Shown here piece after piece: positions 47,583 through 47,669 of a DNA stretch of 64,000 nucleotides (its first letter is position 1; each line of letters starts with the position of its first letter). Location: IMG/VR virus record IMGVR_UViG_2925897562_000001. One strand, given 5' to 3'. The notes under the pieces were generated by a model. That model was given only the letters and a program-made list of their open reading frames with translations, was not told where the DNA came from and did no database searches. The DNA comes from a virus (taxonomy: Duplodnaviria > Heunggongvirae > Uroviricota > Caudoviricetes). The position numbers and the translations under genes are program-made.

Positions 47583-47669
47583 TGGCGGAGAGTAATGGAA
47601 TCGAACCATCATCGCTTGCGCTATGGGACGGTTTTCAAGACCGCTTGAGCACCATGCTCCCTACTCTCC
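47583..47669 (-). tRNA. class-II tRNA-like gene, anticodon UGA (Ser), possibly a pseudo-tRNA
   Basis: 87 nt GGAGAGT...GCGGT-CTTGAAA-ACCGT...GATGG-TTCGATT-CCATT-ACTCTCC-G-CCA; 7-bp acceptor, canonical T arm, G73, encoded CCA; 17-nt variable region pairs poorly. Confidence 0.5.

What the first reader, a model, noticed from the sequence alone, without database searches (positions are those of the whole stretch)
47583..47669. Extra class-II tRNA(Ser-UGA)-like gene between upl and trnT
P1 is described as carrying three tRNAs (Asn, Thr, Ile), all of which are present here. An additional 87-nt sequence folds with a 7-bp acceptor stem, canonical T arm (GATGG-TTCGATT-CCATT), G73 discriminator, encoded CCA and a CUUGAAA anticodon loop (UGA anticodon, as in E. 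coli serT), but its 17-nt variable region pairs poorly. It could be a functional tRNA-Ser compensating codon usage or tRNA-targeting host defences, or a decaying pseudo-tRNA.
Basis: seen in the sequence. Interest (0 to 1): 0.45.

Follow-up and report, generated by a model that had tools for sequence, protein, structure and literature searches.

The report
Phage serine tRNA with 8/4 fold
This is a real and probably working serine tRNA gene that many P1-like plasmid phages carry beside their other tRNA genes, although textbook P1 lacks it; public records already annotate it, and its odd shape belongs to a rare tRNA class that has already been described.

Summary
ARAGORN calls tRNA-Ser(UGA) at exactly 47583-47669 on the minus strand, in line with tRNA-Asn, tRNA-Thr and tRNA-Ile. 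It is not a novelty. The window is not reference P1 but a P1-like phage-plasmid, 100% identical here to E. coli p15648-1, where RefSeq already annotates this sequence as tRNA-Ser. Phage D6's GenBank record and a paper on D6-like plasmids also list it. Reference P1 has about 150 unrelated bases in its place.

The gene is in 330 of 5,426 complete E. coli genomes, almost always on plasmids. It has homologues in rV5-like, T4-like, T5-like, Acinetobacter and Streptomyces phages.

- The acceptor stem has 8 pairs and the T stem has 4 (the "8/4" fold).
- The D hairpin is compact.
- The variable arm is a 6-pair stem capped by GCAA. It pairs perfectly in the common allele; this copy has one A·G mismatch.

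Mukai et al. (2017) described this (8/4) tRNA-Ser class in phages. It explains the near-miss to the tRNA-Sec model and the failure of the general tRNA model.

Best reading: a functional, accessory, host-SerRS-charged tRNA that supplies UCA decoding. Expression and charging are untested. Interest is low.

The parts
47583..47669 (-). tRNA-Ser(UGA) gene, 87 nt including the encoded CCA (47583-47585) and the discriminator G (47586)
   Evidence: ARAGORN call. The family covariance model R1 scores it 92.2 bits, though the window sequence was part of the seed. The identical sequence is annotated tRNA-Ser by RefSeq in p15648-1.
47662..47669 (-). Acceptor stem 5' strand, tRNA positions 1-8 (GGAGAGUA). 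It pairs with 47587-47594 (UACUCUCC).
   Evidence: The 8th pair (A8-U76) is kept in 43/43 homologues as A-U 35, G-C 6, U-A 2. An alignment-free count gives the same result.
47587..47594 (-). Acceptor stem 3' strand, tRNA positions 76-83
47647..47659 (-). Compact D hairpin: GAGC-AUGGU-GCUC, positions 11-23, a 4-bp stem (a 5th A-U pair is possible) and a GG-containing loop of 5 (or 3) nt. It is preceded by a 2-nt linker, G9 G10.
   Evidence: All four D-stem pairs show changes on both sides across the family and 96.4% of cells are paired. G17 and G18 are nearly invariant.
47628..47644 (-). Anticodon arm: 5-bp stem (G·U, C-G, G-C, G-C, U-A) and loop CUUGAAA. The anticodon UGA is at 47635-47637.
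   Evidence: Four of the five pairs covary. The loop is identical to that of host serT.
47610..47625 (-). Variable arm: 6-position stem C45-G60 ... C50-G55 with a GCAA tetraloop. A48 (47622) faces G57, the one mismatch in this allele.
   Evidence: The common allele in P1-like, D6, P7 and Cyrano copies has U48 and a perfect 6-bp stem. In 36/43 homologues the nucleotide just before the 4-bp T stem closes the variable stem, as C-G 29, U-A 5, G-C 1, A-U 1.
47595..47609 (-). T arm: 4-bp stem AUGG/CCAU and loop UUCGAUU
   Evidence: The rival fifth T-stem pair (G60·U76) is unpaired in 6/43 homologues and never changes on both sides.
47495..47582 (-). 3' flank that travels with the tRNA. Together with the tRNA it forms the 181-bp cassette 47495-47675 that reference P1 lacks. 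47495-47564 is about 95% identical to phage lambda Q-S intergenic DNA and about 83% identical to the spacer after tRNA-Ser in rV5-like phages.
   Evidence: blastn breakpoints against P1, MH422554 and D6. No significant fold.
48091..48244 (-). tRNA-Thr(UGU) 48091-48166 and tRNA-Asn(GUU) 48169-48244, upstream members of the same array
46172..46247 (-). tRNA-Ile2 (anticodon CAU), downstream member of the same transcription unit, just before the dnaB-like ban gene
   Evidence: Annotated tRNA-Ile in P1 and by RefSeq.
48901..48930 (-). C1 repressor operator pair and Pban promoter region (tattgctctaataaatttattagtgtaata), identical to P1 Op72/Obanab. This is the presumed promoter of the array.
   Evidence: Sequence identity to the annotated P1 operator. 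The P7 record says this operator controls the tRNAs and ban.

Best explanation
It is a functional accessory tRNA-Ser(UGA) gene of the rare '8/4' structural class. It has an 8-bp acceptor stem, a 4-bp T stem, a compact D hairpin and a long variable arm that stacks directly against the T stem.

Inferred mechanism:
1. It is transcribed on the minus strand with tRNA-Asn, tRNA-Thr, tRNA-Ile2 and ban, from the C1-repressed Pban promoter, when the prophage is derepressed.
2. Host RNase P and 3' nucleases cut it out. The CCA is encoded.
3. Host SerRS charges it. SerRS reads the long variable arm, G73 and the G1-C72/G2-C71/A3-U70 start of the acceptor stem, not the anticodon.
4. EF-Tu delivers it, because the acceptor/T branch is the normal 12 bp.
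5. It decodes UCA, and other UCN codons if U34 is modified as in host tRNA-Ser1. This adds to the single host serT gene for a phage that uses A-ending codons heavily.

The gene sits in a swappable 181-bp cassette. That is why some P1-like phages have it and reference P1 does not.

Shown here: the gene, its conservation, the covariation-backed fold, the identity elements, the genomic context and the phage codon bias. Inferred: transcription, processing, charging, decoding and any benefit.
For: Detection:
- ARAGORN calls it at the exact coordinates, with a false-positive rate of 1 call per 40 shuffled windows.
- RefSeq annotates the identical sequence as tRNA-Ser in p15648-1. D6 and D6-like plasmids list a Ser tRNA.

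Conservation:
- It is in 330/5,426 complete E. coli genomes at about 95-100% identity, with 333 of 335 places on plasmids.
- It is in 349 PLSDB plasmids.
- Homologues are annotated tRNA-Ser in rV5-like, T4-like, T5-like, Acinetobacter and Streptomyces phages.

Structure, on 43 distinct homologues:
- 98.2% of cells are paired.
- 13 of 21 pairs change on both sides.
- The covariation score is 0.516 against 0.166 in shuffles (0/500 reach it) and at most 0.106 when partners are slid.

8/4 rather than 7/5:
- Pair 8:76 is A-U 35, G-C 6, U-A 2, unpaired 0.
- The rival pair 60:76 is unpaired in 6 homologues and has no two-sided change.
- Nucleotide 60 instead closes the variable stem in 36/43, with four pair types.
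- Canonical tRNA-Ser genes caught by the same scan have U8 and no 8:76 pairing.
- Model scores split cleanly: at least 71 bits for this class, at most 68 for other tRNA-Ser genes.

Identity elements can be read in the sequence: G73, G1-C72/G2-C71/A3-U70 as in host serT, UUCGAUU T loop, GG in the D loop, A36-A37-A38.

The fold class is published, including in phages, and members are used by E. coli translation.

Context: same strand and same array as three bona fide tRNAs (74.5, 72.9 and 64.7 bits), downstream of a conserved C1 operator/Pban.

Codon use in 48 window ORFs: UCA 18.4% of Ser codons, ACA 23.0% of Thr, AUA 16.9% of Ile. These are above the E. coli values I recall (about 12-13%, 13-14% and 7-8%; not computed here). 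All the array's decoders of that type read A-ending codons.
Against: - No expression, processing or charging data exist for this gene, here or in the literature I could reach.
- The general Rfam tRNA model does not reach its threshold.
- Some pipelines label close variants 'tRNA-OTHER', 'pseudogene' or 'AA not called'.
- This allele has an A·G mismatch in the variable stem that the common allele lacks. It costs about 3.9 kcal/mol in the modelled cloverleaf.
- Reference P1 and MH422554 grow without the gene, so it is dispensable.
- A terminator-like hairpin (48717-48736) lies between Pban and the array, and no sigma-70-like promoter was predicted closer to the gene. Transcription therefore needs read-through or a promoter the simple scan missed.
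- For the window sequence alone, 8/4 and 7/5 are energetically equal (-25.7 vs -25.6 kcal/mol). The choice of 8/4 rests on the family comparison.
- The anticodon loop is identical to the host's, so it offers no obvious escape from an anticodon-loop nuclease.
Confidence: 0.75

Rival explanations
1. It is a functional tRNA-Ser(UGA) but with the ordinary 7/5 cloverleaf the first reader and ARAGORN drew: a 7-bp acceptor stem, A8 unpaired, and a 5-bp T stem starting with G60·U76.
For: In the window sequence both folds are possible and have equal modelled energy (-25.6 vs -25.7 kcal/mol). ARAGORN draws 7/5. G60 can pair with position 76 in 37/43 homologues.
Against: - Position 8 is never U, the near-universal U8 of canonical tRNAs. 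It always pairs with position 76 and changes together with it: A-U, G-C, U-A, with 0/43 unpaired.
- The 60:76 pair fails in 6/43 and never changes on both sides.
- Nucleotide 60 covaries with variable-arm position 45 (four pair types).
- The 7/5 drawing needs either a 3-nt linker before the D stem or a D stem that is not conserved in homologues.
Confidence: 0.1
2. It is a decaying pseudo-tRNA: a remnant of a once-functional tRNA-Ser carried passively in a variable spacer of the ban operon.
For: - It fails the general tRNA covariance model.
- This allele has a mismatch in the variable stem.
- It is absent from reference P1.
- The neighbourhood holds tRNA-like debris, such as the hairpin with a T arm at 48010-48081.
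- Some pipelines tag relatives as pseudogene or OTHER.
Against: All four helices and the variable stem are kept by compensatory changes across very different phages. Every functional motif is intact: the CCA, G73, the T loop, the GG of the D loop and the anticodon loop. It is near-identical in hundreds of independent plasmids. The low generic score is explained by the 8/4 fold, which is a known cause of tRNA-Sec false positives.
Confidence: 0.08
3. It is a tRNA-shaped element whose main job is not decoding. Candidate roles are a processing punctuation mark for the ban-operon transcript, a recombination or cassette-exchange site, or a decoy for a tRNA-binding host factor.
For: - It behaves as a cassette with a co-travelling 3' flank shared with lambda and rV5-like phages.
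- A 26-nt direct repeat follows each unit of the spacer.
- The array varies between relatives: Arg in place of Asn, or an extra Tyr.
Against: A punctuation or recombination role would not need a conserved Ser anticodon loop, G73, a SerRS-type variable arm, an encoded CCA and the G1-C72/G2-C71/A3-U70 pairs. In lytic phages the homologues sit in ordinary dense tRNA arrays.
Confidence: 0.05
4. It is a selenocysteine-type or recoding tRNA, as the tRNA-Sec model hit suggests.
For: The best Rfam match is tRNA-Sec: 42.9 bits, E = 1.4e-6 in a 2.9-kb search. It has an 8-bp acceptor stem and a compact D arm.
Against: - The score is below the family's gathering threshold of 47.
- The anticodon is UGA (reads the Ser codon UCA), not UCA (reads UGA).
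- The acceptor/T branch is 12 bp, not the 13 bp that tRNA-Sec function requires according to the review.
- The D stem is 4-5 bp, not 6.
- Mukai et al. found exactly such sequences as false positives of the Sec model.
Confidence: 0.01

Closest known systems
(8/4) tRNA-Ser of bacteriophages and some bacteria (Mukai et al. [quoted passage not shown]
   Same: A 12-bp acceptor branch split 8+4, a long variable arm, G73, a serine anticodon, a tRNA-Sec-like compact D arm, discovery as a near-miss of the tRNA-Sec covariance model, and location in phage tRNA clusters.
   Different: The paper's phage examples are from uncultured marine and alpha-proteobacterial phages. I could not check whether coliphage or P1-like copies were in its supplement, which is not held. 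This copy has a 5-bp anticodon stem (A×C at the would-be sixth pair), not the longer stem described for the allo-tRNA group. Most allo-tRNAs carry non-serine anticodons; this one does not.
The tRNA-Ser already annotated in phage D6 (MF356679), D6-like plasmid pYU39_89, and RefSeq P1-like plasmids such as p15648-1 (NZ_CP009051.1, 65885-65971)
   Same: It is the same gene: 100% identical in p15648-1 with the same gene order (Dam, Asn, Thr, Ser, SPFH, Ile, DnaB). D6 differs by two substitutions, one in the D stem (A12 to C) and one at position 48 in the variable stem.
   Different: None as an object. Those records do not comment on the fold. D6's note only says that tRNAscan-SE did not call the amino acid.
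E. coli serT (tRNA-Ser1, anticodon UGA), the host's canonical 7/5 class-II tRNA
   Same: The same anticodon loop (CUUGAAA), G73, CCA, the G1-C72/G2-C71/A3-U70 acceptor start and a long variable arm. It presumably uses the same synthetase and reads the same codons.
   Different: Only about 64% identical in a gapped global alignment, and not found by blastn at E <= 0.01. serT starts GGAAGUGU, with U at position 8, and its D region (GGCCGAGCGGUUGAAGGC) is longer than this gene's compact hairpin. From memory, not tested here, it has a 7-bp acceptor stem and a 5-bp T stem.
tRNA-Ser of rV5-like (Vequintavirinae) coliphages, e.g. phita32 (PQ758395), in the array Arg-Tyr-Ser-Thr-Met-Pro
   Same: A close homologue: 83-89% identical, with the same acceptor, D, anticodon and T arms, and even the same 3' flank.
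   Different: 91 nt, with a longer variable arm (7-bp stem, 5-nt loop) and a 4-nt D loop. It sits in a lytic phage's dense tRNA array.
Bacterial tRNA-Sec (selC; Rfam RF01852)
   Same: An 8-bp acceptor stem, no U8, a compact D arm, a long variable arm and G73. It is charged by SerRS.
   Different: tRNA-Sec has a 13-bp (8/5) branch, a 6-bp D stem with a 4-nt loop, and the anticodon UCA. This RNA has 12 bp (8/4), a 4-5-bp D stem and the anticodon UGA, and it scores below the family threshold.

Membership tests
Bacterial-type class-II tRNA-Ser (substrate of SerRS) | Long variable arm (more than 10 nt, forming a stem-loop) | tested here: met
   An 18-nt region (positions 43-60) with a 6-position stem and a GCAA loop. 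There is one A·G mismatch in this allele and none in the common allele. A stem of at least 4 bp is found in 36/43 homologues.
Bacterial-type class-II tRNA-Ser (substrate of SerRS) | G73 discriminator and a G1-C72/G2-C71/A3-U70 acceptor start, as in E. coli tRNA-Ser | tested here: met
   Read directly in the sequence. These first three pairs match host serT, whose sequence was confirmed in 5,390 genomes. They are invariant across the 43 homologues.
Bacterial-type class-II tRNA-Ser (substrate of SerRS) | Serine anticodon in a 7-nt loop with U33 and a purine at position 37 | tested here: met
   The loop is CUUGAAA with anticodon UGA. One homologue (Streptomyces phage ZooBear) has AGA, also a serine anticodon.
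Bacterial-type class-II tRNA-Ser (substrate of SerRS) | Scores above curated thresholds of general tRNA detectors | tested here: inconclusive
   ARAGORN: yes. RefSeq's annotation labels the identical sequence tRNA-Ser. Rfam RF00005: no hit at 29 bits. Close variants are labelled tRNA-OTHER or 'not called'. tRNAscan-SE itself was not available here.
Bacterial-type class-II tRNA-Ser (substrate of SerRS) | Is transcribed, processed and charged with serine | not testable with these tools
   This needs tRNA-seq or a northern blot, acid-gel charging assays, or in vitro serylation.
(8/4) tRNA-Ser / (8/4) allo-tRNA group (Mukai et al. 2017) | 12-bp acceptor branch made of an 8-bp acceptor stem and a 4-bp T stem | tested here: met
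   Pair 8:76 is kept in 43/43 with three pair types. The rival 60:76 fails in 6/43 with no two-sided change. Nucleotide 60 closes the variable stem in 36/43 with four pair types. For the single sequence alone the two folds tie in energy.
(8/4) tRNA-Ser / (8/4) allo-tRNA group (Mukai et al. 2017) | tRNA-Sec-like D arm (long stem, tetraloop) | tested here: inconclusive
   The window has a 4-bp stem with a 5-nt loop, or 5 bp with a 3-nt loop. Family members range from 4-6 bp with 3-5-nt loops. This is compact and Sec-like, but it is not the 6-bp/4-nt form in this copy.
(8/4) tRNA-Ser / (8/4) allo-tRNA group (Mukai et al. 2017) | Anticodon stem longer than the canonical 5 bp | tested here: not met
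   The would-be sixth pair is A×C in the window and mostly A×G or A×C in homologues. The paper states this feature for allo-tRNAs in general. Whether it applies to its (8/4) tRNA-Ser subset I could not check, because the figures and supplement are not held.
(8/4) tRNA-Ser / (8/4) allo-tRNA group (Mukai et al. 2017) | Long variable arm with G73 or U73, and recovered as a near-miss of the tRNA-Sec covariance model | tested here: met
   G73 and the long arm. RF01852 gives 42.9 bits against a gathering score of 47.
Bacterial tRNA-Sec (RF01852) | Anticodon UCA, a 13-bp (8/5) acceptor branch, a 6-bp D stem, and a score at or above the gathering threshold | tested here: not met
   The anticodon is UGA, the branch is 12 bp, the D stem is 4-5 bp, and the score is 42.9, below 47.
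tRNA complement of reference phage P1 (trnA, trnT, trnI) | Present in NC_005856 / AF234172 | tested here: not met
   ARAGORN and model R1 find no Ser gene in the P1 locus. Window 47495-47675 is replaced by about 150 unrelated bases in P1. It is present in P7, D6 and many P1-like plasmids.

The most novel reading that the evidence does not exclude
The 8/4 body is not a neutral oddity but an adaptive phage design. Very different phages share one unusual tRNA-Ser architecture: P1-like and other phage-plasmids, and rV5-like, T4-like, T5-like, Acinetobacter and Streptomyces phages. The reason would be that this architecture keeps SerRS, EF-Tu and ribosome compatibility while escaping a host (or phage-made) factor that recognises the canonical D-arm/elbow or acceptor geometry of cellular tRNA-Ser. 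That factor could be a tRNA-directed defence nuclease or a host-shutoff tRNA cleavage. The gene would then be a nuclease-proof spare part rather than a simple codon-supply gene.
Probability: 0.1. Interest if true: 0.6.

Novelty: already known. Interest (0 to 1): 0.2.

Why it matters
The practical value is for annotation.
- 'P1 has three tRNAs' holds for the reference strain only. Roughly a third of P1-type plasmids in PLSDB carry the full Ser cassette (155 against 536 with the conserved neighbouring spacer).
- The gene is mislabelled or skipped in several records. It is unannotated in P7. Close variants and relatives are labelled 'OTHER', 'pseudogene' or 'not called'.
- These labels arise because the 8/4 fold scores badly with generic tRNA models.

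Recognising these copies as (8/4) tRNA-Ser gives the class members in culturable, genetically tractable E. coli phages (P7, D6, rV5-like). The reason phages favour this fold could be tested there directly. Beyond that it is an ordinary accessory phage tRNA.

Tried and rejected
1. Single-sequence folding. The minimum-free-energy structure is not a cloverleaf and its z-score is only -2.4, so it is uninformative for a tRNA.
2. Thermodynamic choice between 8/4 and 7/5. The two tie at -25.7 vs -25.6 kcal/mol, so I used comparative data instead.
3. ARAGORN's D arm (3-bp GGG/CUC stem, 9-nt loop). I rejected it because those pairs are not kept in homologues, whereas the 11-14:20-23 hairpin covaries at all four pairs.
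4. A tRNA-Sec or recoding role. Rejected on the anticodon, the 12-bp branch and the sub-threshold score.
5. A diverged tRNA in the segment reference P1 has instead. Neither Rfam, nor the family model, nor ARAGORN finds one.
6. A structured RNA in the conserved 3' flank. It has no significant fold (z = +0.36), and the homologous lambda region has no Rfam hit.
7. A host origin. blastn at E <= 0.01 finds no chromosomal tRNA-Ser gene, and the gene is about 64% identical to serT.
8. Literature. The D6 genome paper (PMC5800970), the P1 genome paper (PMC523184) and the supplement of Mukai et al. are not held. I could not check what those authors wrote about this gene.
9. The MAFFT alignment A1 shifted two sequences (L065, L093). 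I realigned to the model (A4) before the final counts. The counts before realignment were nearly the same (vs 83, 84).
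Full report
**What is there**

On the minus strand at 47583-47669 lies the 87-nt sequence GGAGAGUAGGGAGCAUGGUGCUCAAGCGGUCUUGAAAACCGUCCCAUAGCGCAAGCGAUGAUGGUUCGAUUCCAUUACUCUCCGCCA. ARAGORN calls it tRNA-Ser(tga) at exactly those coordinates. It also calls tRNA-Asn (48169-48244), tRNA-Thr (48091-48166) and the CAU-anticodon tRNA (46172-46247) that the P1 record and RefSeq annotate as tRNA-Ile, all on the same strand.

The call is not noise. ARAGORN made one tRNA call in 40 dinucleotide-preserving shuffles of the whole window.

The generic covariance models dislike it. 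Rfam's tRNA model gives no hit at its 29-bit threshold, while the three neighbours score 65-75 bits. The best Rfam match is tRNA-Sec at 42.9 bits, under its threshold of 47.

**The window is not reference P1, and the gene is already annotated**

Over 47495-48300 the window is 100% identical to plasmid p15648-1 of E. coli NCCP15648. There RefSeq annotates this very sequence as tRNA-Ser, in the order Dam methylase, tRNA-Asn, tRNA-Thr, tRNA-Ser, SPFH protein, tRNA-Ile, DnaB.

Other records:
- A paper on D6-like plasmids lists four tRNAs: Asn, Thr, Ser and Met.
- P7 has the gene but leaves it unannotated.
- Reference P1 (NC_005856) and isolate MH422554 lack it. blastn shows that window 47495-47675 is replaced there by about 140-150 unrelated bases. 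Neither ARAGORN, nor Rfam, nor a family-specific model finds a tRNA in them.

Distribution:
- The 87-nt gene occurs in 330 of 5,426 complete E. coli genomes. 333 of 335 places are on plasmids, nearly all labelled tRNA-Ser and a few tRNA-OTHER.
- In PLSDB, 349 plasmids match the cassette and 155 carry at least 80% of it. For comparison, 536 carry at least 80% of the neighbouring P1-type Asn-Thr spacer.
- The same Asn-Thr-Ser order occurs in phage Cyrano and in a 110-kb plasmid with quite different neighbours: DNA ligase, PhoH and glutaredoxin.

**Relatives and the real fold**

Homologues annotated tRNA-Ser are found in:
- rV5-like coliphages, at 83-89% identity and sharing even the 3' flank;
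- T4-like Klebsiella and Salmonella phages;
- the T5-like Klebsiella phage Spivey;
- an Acinetobacter phage;
- a Streptomyces phage.

A pattern scan of IMG/VR added many more. All start GGAGRGUAG and end UUACYCUCC, have A or G rather than U at position 8, and have a very small D hairpin.

I aligned 43 distinct members, built a covariance model and realigned them to it. Results on the realigned set:
- 98.2% of cells are paired.
- 13 of 21 pairs show changes on both sides.
- The covariation score is 0.516, against 0.166 in shuffles (0 of 500 reach it) and at most 0.106 when partners are slid by 1-3 columns.
- All four D-stem pairs and four of five anticodon-stem pairs covary.

The informative point is position 76 of the gene, which could pair with either A8 or G60.
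- Pair 8:76 is present in all 43 homologues, as A-U 35, G-C 6, U-A 2.
- Pair 60:76 is unpaired in 6 and never changes on both sides.
- An alignment-free count anchored on fixed offsets gives the same answer. It also shows that canonical tRNA-Ser genes caught by the same scan have U8 and no 8:76 pairing.
- Nucleotide 60 instead closes the variable stem in 36 of 43 sequences, with four pair types: C-G 29, U-A 5, G-C 1, A-U 1.

So the cloverleaf is:
- an 8-bp acceptor stem (1-8 with 76-83);
- a 2-nt linker;
- a D hairpin at 11-23;
- a 5-bp anticodon stem;
- 2 unpaired nucleotides;
- a 6-position variable stem (45-50 with 55-60) capped by GCAA;
- a 4-bp T stem (61-64 with 72-75) immediately after.

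For the single sequence the two folds tie in energy, so the assignment is comparative. Scores with the family model are bimodal: at least 71 bits for this class and at most 68 for other tRNA-Ser genes.

The window's allele has A48 opposite G57, which costs about 3.9 kcal/mol. This same allele is found in at least nine PLSDB plasmids that are 100% identical over the cassette.

**Comparison with what is known**

This is the '(8/4) tRNA-Ser' of Mukai et al. 2017. Those authors found tRNAs with 8/4 or 9/3 acceptor branches among false positives of the tRNA-Sec covariance model. They state that (8/4) tRNA-Ser occurs in bacteriophages, proteobacteria and rumen Clostridia. [quoted passage not shown] The sub-threshold Sec hit here is the same effect.

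The gene is not a tRNA-Sec. The anticodon is UGA, not UCA; the branch is 12 bp, not 13; and the D stem is 4-5 bp, not 6.

One feature described for allo-tRNAs in general, a longer anticodon stem, is absent: the would-be sixth pair is A×C.

Against the host's own tRNA-Ser(UGA), serT, the gene is only about 64% identical. I confirmed the serT sequence at 99% identity or more in 5,390 genomes. The two share the anticodon loop, G73, CCA and the first three acceptor pairs.

**How it most likely works**

Shown:
- The gene lies on the same strand as, and between, bona fide tRNAs and ban.
- It is downstream of a sequence identical to P1's bivalent C1 operator and Pban promoter (48901-48930).
- The P7 record describes that operator as controlling the tRNAs and ban.
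- In 48 ORFs of the window, UCA makes up 18.4% of Ser codons, ACA 23.0% of Thr and AUA 16.9% of Ile. As I recall the standard tables (not computed here), E. coli uses about 12-13%, 13-14% and 7-8%. The array's tRNAs (Ser-UGA, Thr-UGU, Ile-CAU, and Arg-UCU in one relative) all serve A-ending codons.

Inferred: on derepression the array is transcribed, the tRNA is matured by host enzymes, charged by host SerRS, carried by EF-Tu (normal 12-bp branch) and reads UCA, adding to the host's serT.

Weak points:
- A terminator-like hairpin (48717-48736, the end of the dicF-like region) sits between Pban and the array, and no closer sigma-70-like promoter was predicted.
- There are no expression or charging data.
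- The gene is dispensable, since reference P1 lacks it.
- The anticodon loop is identical to the host's, so it would not escape a nuclease that reads only the loop. This contrasts with the escape-by-loop-mutation idea proposed for other phage tRNAs (paper listed).

**Rivals**

- A canonical 7/5 fold is disfavoured by the covariation above.
- A decaying pseudogene is disfavoured by intact motifs, compensatory changes and near-identity across hundreds of replicons.
- A purely non-decoding role (processing signal, recombination site) does not explain the conserved SerRS identity set and anticodon loop.
- A Sec-like role is excluded by the anticodon and branch length.

**Verdict**

However, the gene is already annotated in public records and its unusual fold belongs to a published class.

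What this check adds is threefold. It assigns the P1-like, D6, P7 and rV5-like tRNA-Ser genes to the 8/4 class. It corrects the cloverleaf. And it shows that the gene is a cassette absent from reference P1. Interest is low (0.2); novelty is 'already known'.

Noticed in passing
window 47495-47564 (-): A roughly 65-70-nt element directly 3' of the tRNA-Ser (TAATTAAGCGAATGCCGGAAGCAGAACCGGATCAACAAATGCGTACAGGCGTCATCGCCGCCCAG) is about 95% identical to the Q-S intergenic region of lambda-type prophages in hundreds of E. coli chromosomes. It is about 83% identical to the spacer after tRNA-Ser in rV5-like phages. It has no significant fold, and the lambda region has no Rfam hit. Why three unrelated phage groups share it is unexplained.
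   Followed up: partly
window 47623-47742 (+) and 47743-48120 (+): The ORFs that P1 annotates as upl and plp, on the strand opposite the tRNAs, are not intact here. upl lacks its first 43 codons, which the tRNA-Ser cassette replaces. plp has an in-frame stop at codon 82, and its 3' end is antisense to tRNA-Thr. They are probably not genes. The region looks like a non-coding tRNA-operon spacer.
   Followed up: partly
window 48010-48081 (-): Just downstream of tRNA-Thr there is a tRNA-like hairpin: a 14-bp stem enclosing a perfect T arm (GGGUUCGAAUCCC), -28.9 kcal/mol, z = -2.74. The same sequence is in reference P1. It is possibly a truncated tRNA remnant or a processing element.
   Followed up: no
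window 47462-47487, 47762-47787, 47995-48020: Three direct copies of a 26-nt module (GCATTCACCGCAATGGTAAGAGCACT on the + strand; 85% and 69% identity to the first) lie in the spacer between tRNA-Thr and the SPFH gene. Two of them follow the tRNA-Ser cassette and the tRNA-like hairpin. They could be recombination points for cassette exchange.
   Followed up: no
window 47353-47473 (-): A sub-threshold match to the Salmonella/enterobacterial sRNA family STnc100 (RF02076): 37.8 bits against a gathering score of 47, E = 5e-6. It is also present in reference P1 at 33.4 bits. It lies between the tRNA-Ser cassette and the small membrane-protein ORF upstream of the SPFH gene.
   Followed up: no
L008 (pE2863-2) 1-74; L006 (phage Ro157c2YLVW) 2461-2547: The tRNA array of P1-like elements is variable. 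One plasmid has tRNA-Arg(UCU) where P1 has tRNA-Asn, and one phage has an extra tRNA-Tyr(GUA) between Asn and Thr.
   Followed up: no
window 46275-47102 (-) and 47083-47319 (-): Where P1 has tciA-tciB-tciC, this window has an SPFH-domain lipoprotein-like gene preceded by a 78-aa hydrophobic ORF. This is another cassette difference from reference P1 in the ban operon.
   Followed up: no
L004 (phage phita32) 2385-2483 (-): In the rV5-like tRNA array ARAGORN reports a 99-nt 'tRNA-???' with a 4-base anticodon between tRNA-Ser and tRNA-Thr. It is an irregular tRNA-like gene and the record does not annotate it.
   Followed up: no
phage records MG065652, MG065655, MG065674 ('Campylobacter phage' C11, C2, A140): These records, labelled as Campylobacter jejuni phages, carry the rV5-like coliphage tRNA-Ser region at the same identity as Escherichia Vequintavirinae. 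The host labels may be wrong, or the samples mixed.
   Followed up: no
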